Positions 6,238 to 32,191 of a DNA stretch of 43,142 nt are shown in pieces. The translations under genes were made by a program, and so were the position numbers. The stretch spans positions 1 through 43,142 of the forward strand of contig DAOUWX010000001.1 of the NCBI GenBank assembly GCA_030666935.1, given 5' to 3'. The stretch is from Atribacterota bacterium (GTDB lineage Bacteria > Atribacterota > Phoenicimicrobiia > Phoenicimicrobiales > Phoenicimicrobiaceae). The notes below the pieces were generated by a model, which did no database searches, was not told where the DNA came from, and saw only the letters and a program-made list of their open reading frames with translations. Every line of letters starts with the position of its first letter. Position 1 is the stretch's first letter.

Positions 6238-7005
6238 TCAATTTTTTAATGTCTTTGACATCTTTCCGGTAGCTATTATTTCTATGATATCTTCCGGATT
6301 GGCATCTTTTTTATAAACCTCTCCTATTTTTATCCCCCTATCTAACATCACAAATCTTTCTGCGACAGGATAAACATGATAAACATTGTGAGTGATAAAA
6401 ATAACTGAAACTCCGGACTCTCTTACTTTTTCTACTTGTCTAAGAACTTCCCTTGTTTCTCTAACTGATAAAGCCGCAAGAGGCTCATCAAGGATGAGGA
6501 GTTTGACTTTAAAATGCATAGCTCTTCCTATTGATATCGCCTGTCTCTCTCCTCCGGATAAAATCGATACAAATTCATTTGCTGACCTTACTCTTACACC
6601 TAATCCCGTAACAGCCTTTTCGCATTCTTCGTTCATCTTTTTTCTATCAAGCAAACGTATCGGGCCTATTTTTCTGGTTGGTTCCCTTCCTAAAAAAAAG
6701 TTCCTGGAGATACTCATTATATCTACCAAAGATAGTGCCTGATGAACTGTTTCAATCCCCATTGCTCTTGCATCTCTTGGGGATGAAAAATTTACCCGAC
6801 TGCCTTCAAAAAAAATTTCACCTCTATCTGGAGGAAAAACACCGGCGAGGATCTTTATAAGAGTAGATTTACCTGCTCCATTATCCCCTAACAGACCTAA
6901 AATTTCTCCAGATCGAACCTCAACATTTACCTTTTTTAATGCCTGAACTGCTCCAAAATTCTTTTCCATATTGAGCATTTTTACTAATGATATAGCTTCC
7001 TGCAT
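6238..7005 (-). CDS. Sugar ABC transporter ATP-binding protein (single ABC domain, CUT2/FrcA-like)
   Basis: 255 aa with Walker A GDNGAGKST, signature LSGGERQ and Walker B LLILDEP. GAAGGAGGG Shine-Dalgarno upstream. Confidence 0.9.
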   Translation of the reverse strand: MQEAISLVKMLNMEKNFGAVQALKKVNVEVRSGEILGLLGDNGAGKSTLIKILAGVFPPDRGEIFFEGSRVNFSSPRDARAMGIETVHQALSLVDIMSISRNFFLGREPTRKIGPIRLLDRKKMNEECEKAVTGLGVRVRSANEFVSILSGGERQAISIGRAMHFKVKLLILDEPLAALSVRETREVLRQVEKVRESGVSVIFITHNVYHVYPVAERFVMLDRGIKIGEVYKKDANPEDIIEIIATGKMSKTLKN

Positions 7006-10671: not shown

Positions 10672-10826
10672 GTATGATGCTCCTCTATAGATTAATTGAC
10701 AACTACCAGCGCATACCTTATGCATTGAGCTTTGCTAATATGATGGAGTATAATATCAAATTTATTGAAGTTTTATATAAAATCCTTTTTTTTAGCATGG
10801 ATATTAGTTTAAATTATCTTTGTTTA

Positions 10827-10864
10827 CTATATACTACGTTTATTTTAAAAATCCTTCTTTTTCC
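10827..10864 (-). repeat. Isolated copy of the junction-element distal box (TATACTAC..AAAAATCCTTCTTTTT on the + strand)
   Basis: ctatatactacgtttattttaaaaatccttctttttcc matches the terminator-distal end of junction copies R3 and R5. It lies about 160 nt upstream of the trmH-family start, outside the island. Confidence 0.7.
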
Positions 10865-11182
10865 ATCTGTCAACCGTCTATAAAAAAATGGAACCTGTTG
10901 TAACTTATTCTAATAAACTATATGGTCGTTATATAAGGAAGTTTTAAAAATTTTTCTGTATCATTTTAATTATAATAATTACTCATGTTTTATTTTTATA
11001 TTTAAAATGAAACTTACAAAATAATATGCTATACTACCAAACAGTATTTAAAACTAAAATAGGTAACTTGTAAAATAAACTCATTAAATTAAATGCTACA
11101 AAACTCGTAATAAAATAACCTAAAAGAATTCAATCTTAAAACGCTTAGGATAATATTTATATAAAAAAGGAGGAAGGATCGA

Positions 11183-16803: not shown

Positions 16804-16990
16804 AAAAATCCTTCTTTTTTAAATAAAATAAAAAAGCTCTTCAGTATTTAAACTAAAGGGCTGGTATTTTCTTGGCTCCCCCTATTGGACACGTTCAGAA
16901 CTTTTAAGGGAAATATTGCAATAGAAAATATTAGATTAATAAGTTAGTTATTCAATACTAAAGAAATATCTATAGACTAGAATTTGTACA
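16804..16990 (-). repeat. Junction element copy R1 (full length)
   Basis: Read on the minus strand: TTGTAC-aaattcta promoter-like box, then ..taacttattaatctaatattttctattgcaatatttcccttaaaagttctgaacgtgtccaatagggggagcca, a degenerate terminator hairpin, then AAAAAAGAAGGATTTTT. It aligns with R2-R5. Confidence 0.9.
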
Positions 16991-17000
16991 ATATTTTAAA

Positions 17001-17034
17001 ATAAAAAGCCCTTCAACTAAATGCCAAAGGGCTT
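17001..17034 (-). terminator. Intrinsic terminator of the GGDEF gene (same hairpin family as in the junction elements)
   Basis: Minus strand reads aagccctttggcatttagttgaagggcttTTTTATTTT: a 7-8 bp stem followed by a U-tract. Confidence 0.8.
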
Positions 17035-17158
17035 GGAATTATCAAATATCCTTATTAAGGAATACCAAGTAGATAACAGACTTTTTAATCGTAGTAATTA
17101 GCTGTCGGCTGAAAGAACAAGGTTAGGACTCTTTTGTGCAAAATCAATAAAGCATCGT

Positions 17159-18013: not shown

Positions 18014-18552
18014 ATTACCTCCATGATAGGTTAATACCTAACGGTTCATATATTTTAAAATTTTAGGAAAATAAATCACATTAGTCTCTGCAAAGTTTTT
18101 GAATGTCTCCAAATTAGTTTACATTTATCTTGTTATAATAGCATAAATAAATGGAAGCAACAATCTCGTTAAAAACGAACTGCACGTTCCTGACCACAAC
18201 AAAACTATTTTGATTCTATTTGCTGACGGTTTAATAGCAGCCCCAACACGAAATATCCTACCACCGCTTGAGACTCTTTACACATACTTTCTTTCTGGCT
18301 CACTATGTTACAATACATCTTCCATCACTTATGTGTGGTCTTGTTAATGATAATACAGATCTGCAATCACCCTAACTTCGTCGTGTTCTCCTTTTCCAAC
18401 TTTAAATCTTTCCAAATCGGTTGTACGATGCATTCCATTTTATGGTTCAAAAATGTATATGCAATGATGTCAGGAGGTTTATGTATATTAATGCTTACTA
18501 TAGTTTTCTGATTTTAATTAAGTATTTTTTGGTATATTCTACTCTTGCTATT

Positions 18553-18745
18553 AAAATCCTTCTTTTTCTGGAAAATAATTTATAAAAACAAAAAGCCCTT
18601 CAGCAAATTGCCAAAGGGCTGGAAATTGTCAGCTCCCCCTATTGGAAAGCTTTAGAACTTTTAAGGGGGAAATTGCACTTGAAAACATTAGATTAATAAG
18701 TTAATTATTCATTATTCTAGGTAATCTTTAAATAGAATTTCACAA
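18553..18745 (-). repeat. Junction element copy R2 (full length, subtype aaagcttt)
   Basis: Aligns with R1, R3 and R4. The terminator hairpin is agccctttggcaatttgctgaagggct followed by a T-run on the minus strand. The internal variable box is ggaaagctttag, as in R4. Confidence 0.9.
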
Positions 18746-18921: not shown

Positions 18922-19050
18922 TTAACTTGCATTTATGGTTAGAATAATTAATACCTTATAATCCTTAAGAGATAGGGCATGACCTAAATTGATCGCCGTC
19001 GTAGTTTTCCCGGTCCCGCCTTTAAAATTTAATATTGCAATTTTTCTCAT
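18922..19050 (-). pseudogene. ParA/Soj-family ATPase N-terminal remnant (42 codons)
   Basis: Below the ORF-track size cutoff. My translation is [42 protein letters not shown]. It has the deviant Walker A KGGxGKT and the usual KVLxID context, then breaks off. Confidence 0.65.
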
Positions 19051-21737: not shown

Positions 21738-21816
21738 TTTTAAGCTCCCTTCTATATAGACCTCTTGATATTTTTTTACGGTTTGCATTTTTTACAGGGT
21801 CTCCTACCAGAAGCAA

Positions 21817-21975
21817 TTGCCCCGTCGGTGCTTTTTTGTATAAAGCTCTCCAGAGTTCTGTCCGGTAACAGTCCTTTTGCCTGAAAGTTTGGATACTTTT
21901 GGTATCTTGCCTCTTCGGCTCTTTTTCTTTTGTGATGGAAAGAAAAGGTCTATCCTGTTGCCTTCATCCGGGTTA
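21817..21975 (-). promoter_or_regulatory. Glycine riboswitch, copy 1 (aptamer 1 plus truncated aptamer 2; decayed)
   Basis: About 90% identical to copy 2 over roughly 160 nt. Minus strand reads ..caacaGGATAGacc..gaGCCGAAGAGGCAAgatacc..aaaCTTTCAGGCAAAAGGACtgtt..aaCTCTGGAGAGc..GCACCGACGGGGCAA. The conserved GGAGAG is GGATAG here, and homology stops right after GGGGCAA. No P1 3' strand (CAGAG) and no terminator follow. Confidence 0.7.
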
Positions 21976-22216
21976 TAATATTTTATTTTAAGTTAAGTAA
22001 TCATTTAAGATTGATAGTTGGATGGTTAGTATAGTTATAAGAATGTTACTTAGTGGGTCTCTTGGGATAGAGAAAAGGTGCTACTCTTAAGATAAATCTT
22101 AGATAATATAGCTTTTTATTTTAGGATAATGATATTATAGATATTCTGCTTGGATTAAAAATAGACTTCTTCAATTTATTTTTAATAGGCTGTTTTCTTT
22201 ATACTACAGTTCTATT

Positions 22217-22399
22217 AAAAAATCCTTCTTTTTCTGTGAAAATAATTTATAAAAAACAAAAAACCCTTTAGCAAAATGCCAAAGGGCTTGGAATGTCTTG
22301 GCTCCCCCTATTGGACACGTTCAGAACTTTTAAGGGAAACATTGCAACTGAAAATATTAGATTAATAAGTTAGTTACACACAATTAGAATATCTTCAAG
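22217..22399 (-). repeat. Junction element copy R3 (full length, subtype gaacgtgtcc)
   Basis: Minus strand reads cTTGAAGatattctaattgtgtgTAACTAacttattaatctaatattttcagttgcaatgtttcccttaaaagttctgaacgtgtccaatagggggagccaagacattccaagccctttggcattttgctaaagggTTTTTTGTTTTTT...AAAAAGAAGGATTTTTT. Confidence 0.9.
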
Positions 22400-25165: not shown

Positions 25166-25458
25166 AAAAAAGGACAGAATAAAAATAGTTATATTACTAT
25201 TCTTACTCTGTTCTTTTACCTGAAAGATTCTTCCTAATTGATTAGGAGAAAGTTTTTTCAGTAAATTCTGTATGGGTTTTCCTAAAGATTAGGAGTTGCC
25301 CCGTCGGTGCTTTTTAGTATAAAGCTCTCCAGAGTTCTGTCCGGTAACAGTCCTTTTGCCTGAAAGTTTGGATACTTTTGGTATCTTACCTCTTCGGCTC
25401 CTTCTCTTTTACGATGGAAAGAAAAGGTCTCTCCTGTTACCTTCATACAGGTTACAAT
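25166..25458 (-). promoter_or_regulatory. Tandem glycine riboswitch, copy 2, with terminator expression platform
   Basis: Aptamer 1 (minus strand): aacaGGAGAGacc...gaGCCGAAGAGGTAAgataccaaaagtatccaaaCTTTCAGGCAAAAGGACtgtt. Aptamer 2: aaCTCTGGAGAGc...GCACCGACGGGGCAA...CTTTCAGGTAAAAGAACAGAG. The P1 3' strand CAGAG overlaps the 5' arm of the terminator cagagtaagaatag/ctatttttattctg, which is followed by TCCTTTTTT (25166-25210). The layout matches my recollection of the B. subtilis gcvT leader. Confidence 0.85.
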
Positions 25459-25533
25459 ATTTAATTTATTAAATTTATAGAATATAAAATATTTCAGGCT
25501 ACATGTTATATTACAAATACGACATAAGGTTTT

Positions 25534-25730
25534 AAAAATCCTTCTTTTTTGGGAAAATAATTTGTAAAAGAAAAAGCCCTTCAGCAAATGCTAAAGGGCT
25601 TGAAAATGTCTGGCTCCCCCTATTGGAAAGCTTTAGAACTTTTAAGGGAAGTATTACAACTGAAAATATTAGATTAAATCAGTTAATTCTTAATTATTAG
25701 GGGTAATATTTAACAATTAGAATTTGTAAA
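25534..25730 (-). repeat. Junction element copy R4 (full length, subtype aaagcttt)
   Basis: Aligns end to end with R1-R3. The promoter-like box is TTTACAaattctaattgttaaaTATTAC. The terminator is aagccctttagcatttgctgaagggcTTTTTC. Confidence 0.9.
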
Positions 25731-25740
25731 ATATATATAA

Positions 25741-25823
25741 AAAAGCCCTTCAGCAAAATGTCGAAGGGTTGATTATTGTCTTGCTCCCCAGACAGGACGA
25801 TTTTCACAACTTTTGTATAAATG
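25741..25823 (-). repeat. Family-B fragment plus terminator (R4b): degenerate tRNA-3'-end-like ..TCGTCCTGTCTGGGGAGCA followed by the junction-type hairpin
   Basis: Minus strand reads catttatacaaaagttgtgaaaatcgtcctgtctggggagcaagacaataatcaacccttcgacattttgctgaagggcTTTTTT. Its 5' part matches 18784-18828, and its GGGGAGC-spacer-hairpin part matches R6. Confidence 0.7.
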
Positions 25824-25829
25824 ATAACC

Positions 25830-26241
25830 ATAAAATTTGCCAACATTAATATACATTTTCGACACAAAAACCTAGATCTTTTTTACAGTAGATTTTAACC
25901 AAATGTATATGCTCTTACAAGGGTTTTCTCGGTATGCAAGTTTTTCTGGTATAAAGTATTACCTCTCTTAAACTACCCCCAGATTTCCATTGTAATAAGG
26001 TCTTTTTTTCTCTAAATTCCTTGTTGAAAGGGGTACTTTTTCTACTATTATATCCTGTATATTAAAGTTTCTTAAAATATCCTCAAATCTCTAAAATTTA
26101 TACCCTAAAATCAAAAATTTTCCTTTTTATATACTATATAATTTATCCTAAATTAGAATTAACCTTGAACGTATTACAGGAATTAGTTAATTTATTTACT
26201 TCGTCATTATTTAATGGTTCTCTTTTGTATTGGTAGGGCAT
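25830..26241 (-). pseudogene. Tyrosine recombinase (phage-integrase family) remnant: N-terminal part only, multiple frameshifts and stops
   Basis: AGGAG then ATG at 26241 gives MPYQYKREPLNNDEVNKLTNSCNTFK..*. The R-x-P-L-x3-E-V-x2-L-x3-C pattern is typical of the start of the catalytic domain. Shifted frames give SRLILI and RFEDILRNFNIQDIIVEKVPLSTRNLEKK. The catalytic R-H-R-Y region is absent. Confidence 0.4.
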
Positions 26242-26330
26242 AAATTTTCTCCTAAAAAGAAGCTGCCGAAGCAATCTGGGCGAAGCATCGCAAACACGCT
26301 GTTAGCTGAAATACGACAATTTTTTCAGAA

Positions 26331-28297: not shown

Positions 28298-28879
28298 ATT
28301 ATACCCCCTCCTTTCTTTTCTTATAATAAACATATTTCTCAATTAGTATGATTTTATTATAAAATCACCTCCTCCCTATCAGCCAAAGGGATACTATTAA
28401 TAATACCATTATTTCAATTTTTTAAATCAATTTGTGTTTGATTCTCTCGCTTGATCAAGTGAAGCCATATTTTTAAACTAATTATTTTTTGAAACTTTTA
28501 ACCTTTGTTGTATATAAATAGACTAAATATTTATTCATAAAAGACTATATGGAATGATTTTTTAGGGAACATCAACTAAAATATGGTTAATGTAAAAGTA
28601 GAAACATTGAAGGGGGACTAATCTTATTATTATCTTTGATCATAAATTATAGGAATATTTTCTATAAAATAATGGTTTAAAAAAGTCTGATATAACATTT
28701 AATTAGTTACAAAAATTAAATTTATATTTAGTGGAGTATCCTCCTTGACAAAACAATAAATAACTTTTTAAGTAAATTACGTAAATCATTTCCAAAGAAC
28801 TAGGAATTATCCCTTCGAACCTTTAAAGCATAAATATTAACTTAAACTATCTTTATTTATTATATACTACATTTTTATT

Positions 28880-28990
28880 AAAAATCCTTCTTTTTCTGGA
28901 AAATAATTTACAAAATAAAAAGCCCTTCAGCTTGATTGCCAAAGGGCTGGAAATTGTCAGCTCCCCCTATTGGACACGTTCAGAACTTTT
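28880..28990 (-). repeat. Junction element copy R5 (5'-truncated in minus sense)
   Basis: It shares the AAAAAGAAGGATTTTT box, the terminator hairpin and ..gttctgaacgtgtccaatagggggagctg. Homology ends at 28990, where an unrelated sequence is fused. Confidence 0.85.
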
Positions 28991-29035
28991 TGTTGGGGTG
29001 AGATTATAGAAGAATTACAAAACACCTATAAACTA

Positions 29036-29091
29036 AAGGAGTTTATTAATCTTCATGTTAGTGTTCCAAATAACATCTAGTGTCACGTCAC
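29036..29091. repeat. Direct repeat A flanking the methyltransferase cassette
   Basis: cctataaactaaaggagtttattaatcttcatgttagtgttccaaataacatctagt aligns with 30204-30259 at about 87% identity by eye. Confidence 0.8.
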
Positions 29092-30158: not shown

Positions 30159-30203
30159 ACCTCATAAATCATTCTATTTTTGAAATAATTCCAATAAAAA
30201 ATC

Positions 30204-30259
30204 CCTTAAACTAAAGGAGTTAATTAATCTTCCTGTTAGAGTTCCAAATAATGTGTAGT
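30204..30259. repeat. Direct repeat B flanking the methyltransferase cassette
   Basis: ccttaaactaaaggagttaattaatcttcctgttagagttccaaataatgtgtagt is the partner of 29036-29091. Confidence 0.8.
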
Positions 30260-30397
30260 TAAATATAAGTCCTTACTTATCAATGAAATTATACCCCTGC
30301 TCTTATTCTAACTTAAAATAGTGCTTTTGTTAAAGGGGAGCAGTATATTAACCTTATTATTGACTTATTGTATATCTCAAAATTTGTAAATATTATA

Positions 30398-31630: not shown

Positions 31631-31837
31631 AAAATTACTTCACCTCAGATTTACCTTTAATAATACGAACCACGTTCTTAAATGTGTCAGGGGAACGGTT
31701 CTTTAATACACTTCAGGGAAAACATGGGGTCGGGCCTTCATATTTGTCATAATTAATTACTTAAAAGAAACTTTTTGAATTATTATAAAATAATAATCAC
31801 AAAATTGTTTATAATTAGACATTACGGTAAATTTTTC

Positions 31838-31919
31838 AAAAAACCTTCTTTTTTTGAAAGATAATTAAAAAAAACAAAAAGCCCTTCAGCAAAAAGCCAA
31901 AGGGCTGGAAATTGACAAG
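31838..31919 (-). repeat. Junction element copy R6 (terminator plus distal box only)
   Basis: Minus strand reads ..GGGGAGCttgtcaatttccagccctttggctttttgctgaagggcTTTTTGTTTTTTTT...AAAAAAAGAAGGTTTTTT. It is colinear with the 3' half of R1-R5. Confidence 0.85.
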
Positions 31920-31949
31920 CTCCCCGGGTAGGATTCGAACCTACAACCC
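31920..31949 (-). pseudogene. tRNA 3' fragment (T-arm plus 3' acceptor strand); no 5' half present
   Basis: Minus strand reads gggtt-GTAGG-TTCGAAT-CCTAC-CCGGGGA-G, a canonical T stem-loop plus a 7-nt acceptor strand and discriminator. Upstream sequence has no complementary TCCCCGG, D-arm or anticodon stem. Confidence 0.8.
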
Positions 31950-32191
31950 TCTTTTAGCAAGCCTCTATTTATTTATCAATAAATCGTTTCGTATTGCGTA
32001 TCGAGTATCGCGTGAAGAAAAAGAACTCGATAAAAAAGAAGATAGAAAAACAAAAGCAATAAATATTCTTTCCTCCTTTCTTACTACCCCACTAAAGTTT
32101 ACACTAACAATTTCCTACTTCACTAACAAATTAAAAGTAGACTCTTAAGAATAACCTAAAATTGTAATAATATAGAGTCGGAAAATAATGC

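What the first reader, a model, noticed from the sequence alone, without database searches (positions are those of the whole stretch)
22217..22399. The junction element has the anatomy of an autonomous multi-copy small-RNA gene, with two structural subtypes
Read on the minus strand, copies R1-R4 share:
- a -35-like hexamer (TTGAAG, TTGTAC, TTTACA or TTGTGA) fused to a conserved aWattcta, with an A/T-rich -10-like hexamer about 16-17 nt later
- a conserved body, taacttattaatctaatRttttc..ttgcaat..ttccc(cc)ttaaaagttct[variable]tccaatagggggagc
- a clean intrinsic terminator

The C-run and G-run (ttccc..ttaaa / tagggggag) can close a stem around the variable box. That box comes in two versions: gaacgtgtcc (R1, R3, R5) and the self-complementary aaagctttcc (R2, R4).

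No ORF is conserved across copies; an ATG is present only in R3. That gives four full copies plus one 5'-truncated copy (R5) within about 12 kb of a roughly 125-150-nt putative RNA that I cannot assign to any known family.

Its C-run is also complementary to the G-run Shine-Dalgarno sequences of the island genes. That link is speculative.
Basis: partly seen in the sequence, partly recalled or inferred. Interest (0 to 1): 0.72.

Follow-up and report, generated by a model that had tools for sequence, protein, structure and literature searches.

The report
tRNA-Asn-like junctions between gene cassettes
The repeated "small-RNA gene" is more likely the boundary module that separates mobile gene cassettes in an Atribacterota genome, built from a copy of the end and terminator of the tRNA-Asn gene; it may mark an integron-like gene-capture system whose recombinase is unknown.

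Summary
The repeat is real. A 29-nt core, AAGTTCT-N8-CCAATAGGGGGAGC, occurs 5 times on the minus strand of the window, against 0 expected, and each copy is followed by a strong intrinsic terminator. No Rfam family matches.

The reading as an autonomous sRNA gene is weakly supported:
- No sigma-70-type promoter is detected on the minus strand.
- The 5' body has no conserved structure.
- The C-run/G-run stem shows only one-sided C/U changes and folds no better than shuffled sequence.
- The stem is missing in sister versions of the element.

The last ~110 nt of every copy (GGGGAGC, spacer, hairpin, AAGAAGGATTTTT block) is homologous to the 3' end, trailer and terminator of an intact Atribacterota tRNA-Asn gene. 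A true 33-nt tRNA-Asn 3' fragment heads the array at 31919-31951.

The copies bound co-oriented cassettes of 0.2-4.6 kb carrying unrelated accessory genes. Related genomes hold the same cassette in different contexts, with homology starting exactly at GGGGAGC. The core also occurs in arrays in Patescibacteria; single copies occur in Spirochaetota and Zixibacteria contigs.

I read the element as an att-type junction that also acts as a transcriptional insulator in a tandem cassette array. No recombinase was found. A short ORF on the opposite strand (LDxFRTF..., 20-36 aa) is unexplained.

The parts
22217..22399 (-). The finding's copy: a junction module made of body A, M1 core, spacer, terminator and downstream conserved block.
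   Evidence: Repeat families D1-D4; alignments A1 and A5.
22301..22329 (-). M1 core, AAGTTCTGAACGTGTCCAATAGGGGGAGC. Its 3' half resembles the T-stem and acceptor 3' strand of tRNA-Asn.
   Evidence: 5 copies, 0 expected; 74 genome loci; alignment A6.
22331..22340 (-). C-run strand (GTTTCCCTTA) of the stem. It pairs with 22301-22310 (TAGGGGGAGC).
   Evidence: Pairs are kept in 98.8% of cells but change on one side only.
22251..22289 (-). Intrinsic terminator: a 13-bp hairpin at 22261-22289 followed by a T-run. It is homologous to the terminator of the tRNA-Asn gene.
   Evidence: wobble asymmetry.
22197..22250 (-). Downstream conserved block (ATAAATTATTTTCACAGAAAAAGAAGGATTTTTT...GTAGTATAA). It is also present after the intact tRNA-Asn gene.
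22311..22373 (+). Short ORF on the opposite strand, LDTFRTFKGNIATENIRLIS* (TTG start, no Shine-Dalgarno sequence).
   Evidence: family of 387 database proteins, the 120 listed all 38-81 aa.
16840..16990 (-). Junction copy (body A + M1) next to the conserved mannitol-dehydrogenase flank.
17003..17060 (-). Degenerate site holding only the spacer and hairpin, directly upstream of the 16840 copy.
   Evidence: (D3, D4).
18551..18740 (-). Junction copy (body A + M1, box AAAGCTTT).
25532..25721 (-). Junction copy (body A + M1, box AAAGCTTT; plus-strand ORF of 25 aa at 25623-25700).
25740..25830 (-). M2-type site (...AAAAGTTGTGAAAATCGTCCTGTCTGGGGAGC + spacer + hairpin), directly upstream of the 25532 copy.
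28879..29080 (-). Junction copy with body B + M1 (plus-strand ORF of 36 aa at 28970-29080). It is not a truncated copy.
31837..31951 (-). Head of the array: the 3' 33 nt of tRNA-Asn (AGGGTTGTAGGTTCGAATCCTACCCGGGGAGC), followed by the same spacer, terminator and downstream block.
   Evidence: ARAGORN finds no whole tRNA here.

Best explanation
Each copy is the junction between two neighbouring gene cassettes in a tandem array anchored on the 3' end of tRNA-Asn. It is an att-type site that also works as a transcription terminator and insulator.

**Composition.** The module is composite.
- The 3' ~110 nt (GGGGAGC, a 10-12-nt spacer, a 12-13-bp hairpin with U-run, and the AAGAAGGATTTTT block) is a copy of the last 7 nt, trailer, terminator and flank of the tRNA-Asn gene.
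- The 5' ~90 nt (body plus core) belongs to the cassette. It ends in a diverged imitation of the tRNA's T-arm and acceptor 3' strand.

**Proposed mechanism.** Circular cassettes carrying one such site recombine with the tRNA-Asn end, or with the copy of it left by an earlier cassette. Cassettes therefore pile up in one orientation. Each is closed by a terminator that acts on minus-strand transcripts.

**Shown:** the homology to the tRNA-Asn gene end, the array layout, cassette gain and loss at these boundaries, and the strand on which the terminator works.

**Inferred:** site-specific recombination rather than homologous exchange, the position of the crossover, and the recombinase, which was not found.
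For: 1. In L073 an intact Atribacterota tRNA-Asn is followed by the same spacer, hairpin and AAGAAGGATTT block as every copy (ARAGORN; sequence; alignment A6).
2. The array in the window starts with a 33-nt tRNA-Asn 3' fragment and no whole tRNA. The same fragment plus module occurs in L019 and L067.
3. Sites form co-oriented arrays spaced 0.17-4.6 kb apart: 7 in the window, 5 in L077, 3 in L079 and 3 in the Saccharibacteria locus L030.
4. The genes between sites are nearly all co-oriented and unrelated. They include GGDEF, methyltransferase, GNAT, PNP, HicAB, SLFN_AlbA_2 and surface proteins.
5. Cassette polymorphism.
   - L076 shares the PNP-GNAT cassette at 95% identity, with homology starting exactly at GGGGAGC. 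Upstream of that point L076 has body B + M1, whereas the window has the tRNA fragment.
   - The second site in L076 leads straight into the glycine-riboswitch cassette, which lies one cassette further on in the window.
   - L064 shares the mannitol-dehydrogenase flank (86%) but has a different cassette next to it.
6. The core families M1, M2 and M3 all align to the 3' end of tRNA-Asn.
7. In Spirochaetota (L052) the core faces a fragment that I read by eye as the 3' end of a tRNA-Asn (ARAGORN calls no tRNA there) across a shared hairpin.
8. The terminator works on the minus strand and is replaced by unrelated hairpins in other lineages.
9. Remnants of an integrase and of ParA lie inside the array.
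10. A close precedent exists: tandem ssrA islands in Dehalococcoides, bounded by repeats of the ssrA 3' end with an extra element-derived motif beside them. The authors suggest that some, which seem to encode neither integration nor transfer, may be cis-mobilizable (PMC3146451).
Against: - No recombinase gene recurs among the 150 ORFs of 176-444 aa scanned from the 74 genome loci, and none appears in two 16-20 kb arrays.
- The only integrase remnant in the window belongs to a 175-aa recombinase family that shows no such site within 4 kb in 78 of 80 loci.
- The cores are not identical to the tRNA, unlike classical attP sites.
- The shared block is long and imperfect, so homologous recombination between junctions could produce the same patterns.
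- In L073 the stretch between the tRNA and the next site holds ordinary genes in both orientations.
- The conserved plus-strand ORF and the 29-nt identity across phyla are not required by this model.
Confidence: 0.5

Rival explanations
1. This is an intergenic repeat module combining a terminator with a conserved block. It spreads and shuffles cassettes only by homologous recombination, or by gene conversion between copies. There is no dedicated recombinase, and the resemblance to tRNA-Asn reflects one copy lying next to that gene.
For: - No recombinase was found.
- The shared block is long (100-200 nt) and 75-95% identical, which is enough for homologous exchange.
- A copy of the downstream block also sits outside the array, upstream of a core gene at 10789-10880.
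Against: - Partial tRNA-Asn 3' fragments occur at several loci.
- An apparent tRNA-Asn-end fragment (judged by eye) lies beside the core in Spirochaetota, where hairpin and flanks share no sequence with Atribacterota.
- The core ends sharply at GGGGAGC in Patescibacteria, where nothing downstream is conserved.
- All arrays are strictly co-oriented.
Confidence: 0.18
2. Each copy is a self-contained gene for a ~125-150-nt minus-strand small RNA, with its own promoter, a stem closing a variable loop, and a terminator.
For: - Terminator on the minus strand.
- A 7-bp stem is kept in 98.8% of cells, with only C/U changes opposite G.
- A TAATAT-like hexamer is semi-conserved ~95 nt upstream of the terminator in body A copies.
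- No Rfam match.
Against: - No promoter call.
- No structure or covariation in the body.
- Stem energy equals that of shuffles; the stem is lost in M2 and reduced to 3-4 C-G pairs in body B and Patescibacteria versions.
- The upstream body is replaceable: body A, body B, body C or unrelated sequence can precede the same core.
- The 3' third derives from the tRNA-Asn gene.
- The substitution pattern in the body fits the opposite strand better.
Confidence: 0.12
3. The functional unit is a micro-protein gene on the plus strand: LDxFRTF followed by KGNITTENIRL..., CWGEIIEELQKTYKLKELI... or CMSDETEKVYRKLEELI..., 20-36 aa. The minus-strand conservation is then its mirror image. One option is a cassette-borne regulator or addiction peptide with an antisense partner.
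For: - The ORF is present at every copy.
- The database holds 387 relatives, and the 120 listed are all short; among sampled body-B members most end at a shared ...N-x-[VI] C-terminus.
- Third-codon-position entropy is raised: 11.0 against 7.0 and 6.5.
- pN/pS is lowest in the ORF frame in three subfamilies: 0.37-0.59, against 0.65-1.26 in every other frame except the antisense frame that shares its third positions, which scores 0.41-0.70.
- Peptide similarity holds across phyla.
Against: - TTG start with no Shine-Dalgarno sequence, in a genome that otherwise uses strong ones.
- The sequences for the pN/pS test were picked by peptide pattern, which biases it.
- The first 10 codons are simply the reverse complement of the tRNA-like core. 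The apparent Arg codon swap (AGA/CGC) can be read as differing versions (substitutions or small indels) of T-loop-like DNA.
- Conservation continues ~45 nt past the stop.
- No family match in Pfam, NCBIfam or PHROGs.
Confidence: 0.12
4. This is a cis-acting leader or attenuator that controls the gene downstream of each copy, by alternative pairing between the core and the terminator.
For: - A terminator lies upstream of the next gene.
- In the second hairpin type, the 5' arm CAGAACTT is complementary to the core's AAGTTCTG (L008, L022, L050).
Against: - Downstream genes are unrelated and lie at variable distances (70 to more than 250 nt).
- Two copies are followed by separate glycine riboswitches.
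- The same module follows a tRNA gene.
- The common hairpin type has no equivalent alternative pairing.
Confidence: 0.04

Closest known systems
Tandem ssrA-specific genomic islands and possible cis-mobilizable elements of Dehalococcoides (PMC3146451)
   Same: - Co-oriented tandem islands lie downstream of a small stable-RNA gene.
- Each is bounded by a direct repeat of that gene's 3' end.
- An extra conserved motif sits just upstream of the repeat and does not align to the gene.
[quoted passage not shown]
- Content is strain-specific.
   Different: - The anchor is tRNA-Asn, not tmRNA.
- The repeated block is ~110 nt and includes the terminator, not 20 bp.
- No integration module was seen in any of more than 80 loci.
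- The element-side motif is conserved across phyla.
Chromosomal integron cassette arrays with attC sites (CALINs, Vibrio VCRs)
   Same: - Small co-oriented cassettes of unrelated accessory, toxin-antitoxin and defence genes.
- One conserved ~100-200-nt site at the 3' end of each cassette.
- Sites within one array are highly similar.
- Arrays are often found without an adjacent integrase.
   Different: - No R''/R' boxes (RYYYAAC...GTTRRRY) in any junction.
- The module is not one imperfect palindrome.
- Sequence rather than structure is conserved.
- Each site carries an intrinsic terminator.
- No IntI gene.
- The sites derive from a tRNA gene end.
Classical tRNA-gene attP/attB sites of tyrosine-integrase islands and prophages (own knowledge)
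   Same: Partial 3' tRNA fragments mark island ends. The identity block runs through the tRNA 3' end so that the gene is restored.
   Different: Most sites here carry only a diverged imitation of the T-arm, not an identical copy. Cassettes lack integrases.
Terminator-bearing intergenic repeats such as REP/BIME, Correia and RUP elements (own knowledge)
   Same: Multi-copy, intergenic, hairpin-containing elements that can terminate transcription.
   Different: - No terminal inverted repeats or target duplications.
- Copies are clustered in arrays rather than scattered.
- They are linked to cassette boundaries.

Membership tests
Any Rfam RNA family | A covariance-model match at the gathering score. 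| tested here: not met
   The only real hits are glycine riboswitches, which lie elsewhere. Nothing on the element falls below E = 1.
Autonomous bacterial sRNA gene | Its own promoter at a fixed distance upstream. | tested here: not met
   One search finds no minus-strand sigma-70-like site. One search shows no enrichment. Only consensus promoters were tested.
Autonomous bacterial sRNA gene | Intrinsic terminator on the same strand. | tested here: met
Autonomous bacterial sRNA gene | Conserved secondary structure supported by compensatory changes. | tested here: inconclusive
   The stem is 98.8% paired but changes on one side only, because the G-run was fixed by the search pattern. One search shows it is no more stable than shuffles and is absent in M2.
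Autonomous bacterial sRNA gene | A discrete transcript. | not testable with these tools
   No expression data were available.
Integron attC site | R'' (RYYYAAC) and R' (GTTRRRY) boxes flanking an imperfect palindrome. | tested here: not met
   0 pairs in 6 junctions on either strand.
Integron attC site | An IntI integrase at the head of the array. | tested here: not met
   The window has no integrase gene at the head of the array. None recurs in the loci.
Integron attC site | Co-oriented array of mostly promoterless cassettes, one site per cassette. | tested here: met
   for co-orientation and one site per cassette. Promoterlessness was not shown.
Tandem tRNA/tmRNA-targeting islands, including cis-mobilizable elements | Boundaries are direct repeats of the 3' end of the target RNA gene. 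| tested here: met
   GGGGAGC plus trailer plus terminator are shared with tRNA-Asn. True 33-nt fragments appear.
Tandem tRNA/tmRNA-targeting islands, including cis-mobilizable elements | An intact target gene at one end of the array. | tested here: inconclusive
   Seen in L073. Not in the window, which has no tRNA; the gene may lie beyond 43 kb.
Tandem tRNA/tmRNA-targeting islands, including cis-mobilizable elements | A cognate integrase in at least some members. | tested here: not met
   The only hint is L109: a 175-aa recombinase flanked by 31-nt repeats with a core-like sequence.
Tandem tRNA/tmRNA-targeting islands, including cis-mobilizable elements | Presence/absence polymorphism of whole units at the repeats. 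| tested here: met
   (L076 and L064 against the window).
MITE or other non-autonomous transposon | Terminal inverted repeats and target-site duplication. | tested here: not met
   only weak A/T-rich matches, not shared between copies.
Riboswitch or leader | A consistent downstream gene family and an aptamer with covariation. | tested here: not met

The most novel reading that the evidence does not exclude
The junctions define an undescribed integron-like gene-capture system.
- Integrase-less cassettes of 0.2-4.6 kb are stacked at a tRNA-Asn end through sites that imitate that end.
- The 29-nt core is shared by Atribacterota, Patescibacteria, Spirochaetota and Zixibacteria.
- Each site brings its own terminator and a conserved antisense micro-ORF.
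- A recombinase encoded elsewhere in the genome, not yet identified, would serve the sites.
Probability: 0.25. Interest if true: 0.8.

Novelty: new variant of a known kind. Interest (0 to 1): 0.55.

Why it matters
Atribacterota dominate many anoxic marine sediments and are barely cultivated, so how they acquire and exchange accessory genes is largely unknown.

If these junctions are recombination sites, they mark a widespread and easily searchable cassette system. The markers are a fixed 29-nt core and hundreds of micro-ORF hits in metagenomes. Such a system would shuffle defence, signalling and surface genes, and it appears to cross phylum boundaries.

There is also a practical point. The repeat appears to break assemblies: the short contigs often carry it close to an end. 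It is scattered into bins of unrelated phyla, including Asgard archaea, which can mislead claims of gene transfer.

Tried and rejected
- **Rfam**, gathering and E-value modes: no family.
- **Integron attC**: no R''/R' boxes.
- **MITE**: no terminal inverted repeats.
- **Fragment of a longer protein.** I tested whether the plus-strand ORF is the start of one. A profile search of 5.8 billion proteins listed only 38-81-aa products among the best 120 of 387 hits. Pfam, NCBIfam and PHROGs gave no match.
- **Cognate recombinase.**
  - I clustered all neighbouring ORFs and ran an aggregate Pfam scan; no integrase recurs.
  - I followed the integrase remnant at 26143-26274 to a 175-aa tyrosine recombinase family, using the single metagenome scan.
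  - 78 of 80 loci have no core-like site within 4 kb, so the link is rejected apart from L109 and L134.
- **Whole tRNA at the sites**: none. ARAGORN finds only distant tRNAs, apart from the intact tRNA-Asn in L073.
- **Plasmid, phage and IMG/VR collections**: no match.
- **Literature**, on Atribacterota integrons, islands and repeats: nothing relevant.
- **Conserved block after the terminator as a sigma-70 promoter or a used Shine-Dalgarno sequence**: I found no fitting hexamer spacing or conserved start codon when inspecting the aligned copies.

Full report
**1. The observation**

The region 22217-22399 is one member of a repeat family on the minus strand. A 29-nt core, AAGTTCT-N8-CCAATAGGGGGAGC, occurs at 16875, 18632, 22301, 25613 and 28960. 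All five are on the minus strand, and 100 shuffles gave none.

Each core is followed by three further parts:
- a 10-12-nt spacer;
- a 12-13-bp G+C-rich hairpin with a T-run;
- about 25 nt later, a conserved AAAAAGAAGGATTTTT block.

Rfam gives no match to the element. The only real hits in the island are glycine riboswitches at 21793-21971 and 25205-25450.

Four points are not:
- No sigma-70-type promoter is called on the minus strand at the 5' end. Promoter-like matches are at chance level in this A+T-rich island.
- "R5" is not truncated. It carries a different, conserved upstream body.
- The two box versions are a sample of at least 30.
- A short ORF is conserved, but on the plus strand.

**2. 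Where the sequence comes from**

An exact-pattern scan of one genome per species returned 74 loci. Most are from Atribacterota MAGs and SAGs. Two of them match the window over kilobases: 95% identity with DASRME01 and 86% with RBG_19FT_COMBO_35_14. The window is therefore Atribacterota.

The same core also sits in long contigs of Patescibacteria/Saccharibacteria, Spirochaetota (801 kb, high G+C) and Zixibacteria (179 kb). Very short contigs carrying it are binned into many phyla, including Asgard archaea. I regard these as probable mis-binning of a repeat that breaks assemblies.

**3. The 3' third is a copy of the tRNA-Asn gene end**

The sixth copy, at 31837-31951, has a different "body": AGGGTTGTAGGTTCGAATCCTACCCGGGGAGC.
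- In L073 this sequence is the 3' end of an intact tRNA-Asn(GTT), called by ARAGORN.
- That gene is followed by the same spacer, the same hairpin and the same AAGAAGGATTT block as every copy (alignment A6).
- The window has no whole tRNA, so 31919-31951 is a displaced 3' fragment.
- L019 and L067 carry the same fragment plus module after an unrelated gene.

The "clean terminator" of the putative sRNA is thus the tRNA-Asn terminator.

Other sites share the GGGGAGC-spacer-hairpin part but have different cores:
- M2: ...AAAAGTTGCGAAAATCGTCCTGTCTGGGGAGC, found in the window at 25783-25822;
- M3...CAGACACCAACCCGGGGAGC.

M1, M2 and M3 all align to the tRNA's T-arm and acceptor 3' strand, with small insertions and transitions. 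In Spirochaetota (L052) an M1 core faces a fragment that I read by eye as the 3' end of that organism's tRNA-Asn (ARAGORN calls no tRNA in L052), across a shared hairpin. The hairpin sequence there is unrelated to the Atribacterota one.

**4. The copies are cassette boundaries**

Sites form co-oriented arrays with spacings of 0.17-4.6 kb: 7 in the window, 5 in L077, 3 in L079 and 3 in Saccharibacteria L030.

The genes between sites are almost all on the same strand as the sites, and they are unrelated to each other. They include:
- signalling and enzymes: GGDEF, SAM methyltransferases, GNAT, PNP-like, zinc dehydrogenases;
- toxin-antitoxin and defence: HicAB, SLFN_AlbA_2;
- surface and membrane: Lcl_C surface proteins, small membrane proteins.

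Comparison with related genomes shows whole-unit polymorphism.
- L076 shares the PNP-GNAT cassette at 95% identity, and the homology begins exactly at GGGGAGC.
- Upstream of that point L076 has body B + M1, where the window has the tRNA fragment.
- The next site in L076 is followed directly by the glycine-riboswitch cassette, which in the window lies one cassette further along.
- L064 shares the mannitol-dehydrogenase flank from just below the last core, but has a different cassette above it.

In Patescibacteria nothing after GGGGGAGC is conserved, so the core ends sharply there.

**5. Tests of the RNA reading**

RNAalifold on 35 body-A copies finds only two helices.
- The terminator has five pairs that change on both sides, and it comes in two unrelated hairpin versions.
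- It keeps two tandem G.U pairs in the minus sense in 66-70 of 97 copies. These would be C.A and A.C mismatches on the other strand. The hairpin therefore works on minus-strand RNA.
- The 7-bp C-run/G-run stem is paired in 98.8% of cells. It varies on one side only, because my search pattern fixed the G-run.
- That stem is no more stable than shuffled sequence (z = -0.1 for this copy). It falls to 3-4 C-G pairs in body B and Patescibacteria versions and is absent in M2.
- No structure is predicted in the 5' 75 nt.

The upstream body is interchangeable. Body A, B or C, or unrelated sequence, can precede the same core. None of this excludes transcription, but it does not describe a conserved structured RNA gene.

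**6. The opposite strand**

Read on the plus strand, core plus body gives a short ORF that starts at a TTG with no Shine-Dalgarno sequence. Its forms are:

| Body type | Peptide |
|---|---|
| Body A | LDxFRTF-KGNITTENIRLIS* or -KGNITTENIRLNQLILQY* |
| Body B | LDxFRTF-CWGEIIEELQKTYKLKELINLPVSVPNNV* |
| M2 / body C | LPRQDEFRNFCMSDETEKVYRKLEELISIC* |
| Patescibacteria | LDAFRTFDWDEI... |
| Spirochaetota | LDELRTYCYECRIEE... |

Evidence for coding:
- A profile search of 5.8 billion proteins found 387 relatives. The 120 listed are all 38-81 aa, and none is a longer protein.
- Third-position entropy is raised.
- pN/pS is lowest in this frame in three subfamilies: 0.37-0.59, against 0.65-1.26 in every other frame except the antisense frame that shares its third positions (0.41-0.70).

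Caveats:
- I chose the sequences for the pN/pS test by peptide pattern.
- The first ten codons are simply the reverse complement of the tRNA-like core.
- Conservation runs about 45 nt past the stop.
- No family matches.

I leave this ORF as unexplained. It may be a real micro-protein or a by-product of a conserved DNA site.

**7. The search for a recombinase**

No recombinase recurs near the sites.

The 43-aa integrase-like ORF at 26143-26274 is the start of a very common 175-aa tyrosine recombinase, with at least 462 metagenome loci. In 78 of 80 loci no core-like site lies within 4 kb. Two loci are exceptions:
- In L109, 31-nt direct repeats with the core CGTCCAATCCGGGGAGC flank the gene 7.6 kb apart.
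- L134 has the same site at the same distance on one side.

This is a lead, not a link. The element has no match in plasmids, phages or IMG/VR.

**8. Interpretation**

The best-supported reading is that each copy is an att-type junction in a tandem, co-oriented cassette array anchored on the tRNA-Asn 3' end, and that it doubles as a terminator insulating each cassette.

The closest precedent is the Dehalococcoides ssrA islands.
- They are tandem units bounded by repeats of the ssrA 3' end, with an additional element-derived motif just upstream.
- The authors suggest that some units, which seem to encode neither integration nor transfer, may be cis-mobilizable (PMC3146451).

The layout also recalls integron arrays. 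It fails the attC definition, however, and no IntI is present.

Site-specific recombination itself is inferred, not shown. Homologous exchange between the long junctions is the main rival.

The sRNA reading keeps a low probability. The micro-ORF reading is a non-exclusive alternative.

**9. Verdict**

- The sRNA interpretation is only partly supported.
- The element is a new variant of a known kind: tRNA/tmRNA-anchored tandem mobile units with integron-like features.
- The open questions are the recombinase, the cross-phylum 29-nt core and the antisense ORF.

Noticed in passing
window 25205-25450 (-) and 21793-21971 (-): Glycine riboswitch aptamers: a tandem pair and a single one. A 177-nt stretch is duplicated at 92% identity (21812-21988 and 25291-25467). 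Each opens a cassette just downstream of a junction copy. The genes they precede are an 829-aa surface-type protein (Ig-like repeats plus an Lcl_C-like C-terminus, judged from its sequence and its cluster mates) and a 76-aa membrane protein, an unusual set for this riboswitch.
   Followed up: partly
window 26143-26274 (-); L086 220-749; L087-L166: A 43-aa remnant of a minimal 175-aa tyrosine recombinase (MPYQYKREPLNNDEV...). It retains motifs resembling the tyrosine-recombinase catalytic residues (by eye) but has no N-terminal domain. The family is very abundant in sediment metagenomes: at least 462 loci at 79-92% identity among the 80 kept. Many database entries are short fragments of it.
   Followed up: partly
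L109 1-31 and 7640-7670; L134: 31-nt direct repeats (TGTCATCAACATCGTCCAATCCGGGGAGCCA) lie 7.6 kb apart and flank the small recombinase gene. Their core resembles the M and tRNA-Asn cores. This is the only hint of a cognate enzyme.
   Followed up: partly
window 18922-19050 (-): A 42-aa N-terminal fragment of a ParA/MinD-type ATPase (Walker A region) inside a cassette. It is another remnant of a mobile-element gene.
   Followed up: no
L005, L009, L023, L027, L033, L040, L046, L058, L062, L066, L074: Contigs carrying the Atribacterota-type junction, many of them only 0.5-0.8 kb, are binned into Promethearchaeota (Asgard), Thermoplasmata, Bathyarchaeota and Woesearchaeota MAGs. Other such contigs are binned into several bacterial phyla. 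This is probably mis-binning of an assembly-breaking repeat, and it matters for claims of cross-domain transfer.
   Followed up: no
window 30190-30260: A remnant of the distal part of body B, without core or hairpin, lies between the GNAT and methyltransferase genes. It looks like two cassettes fused by deletion of their junction.
   Followed up: partly
window 10789-10880 (-): A copy of the AAAAAGAAGGATTTTTAA...GTAGTATATA block lies outside the array, upstream of a core SpoU methylase gene. It is preceded by TTGACA and has no core or hairpin.
   Followed up: partly
L008, L022, L050, L038, L009: A second terminator type (ATAGGCAGAACTTC...GAGGTTCTGCCTAT) replaces the usual hairpin. Its 5' arm, CAGAACTT, is complementary to the core's AAGTTCTG, so alternative pairing is possible in these copies.
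   Followed up: no
window ~31.6-32.4 kb: The sign of the GC skew and the coding strand both switch at the head of the array. The 800-nt gap there has no gene of 60 aa or more that looks real.
   Followed up: no
L068 ~6465-6520 (+): An M1 core is joined directly to an inverted tRNA-Asn 3' fragment (…GGGGGAGC|CGGGTAGGATTCGAAC). This looks like a rearrangement with its breakpoint inside the GGGAGC/GCTCCC palindrome.
   Followed up: no
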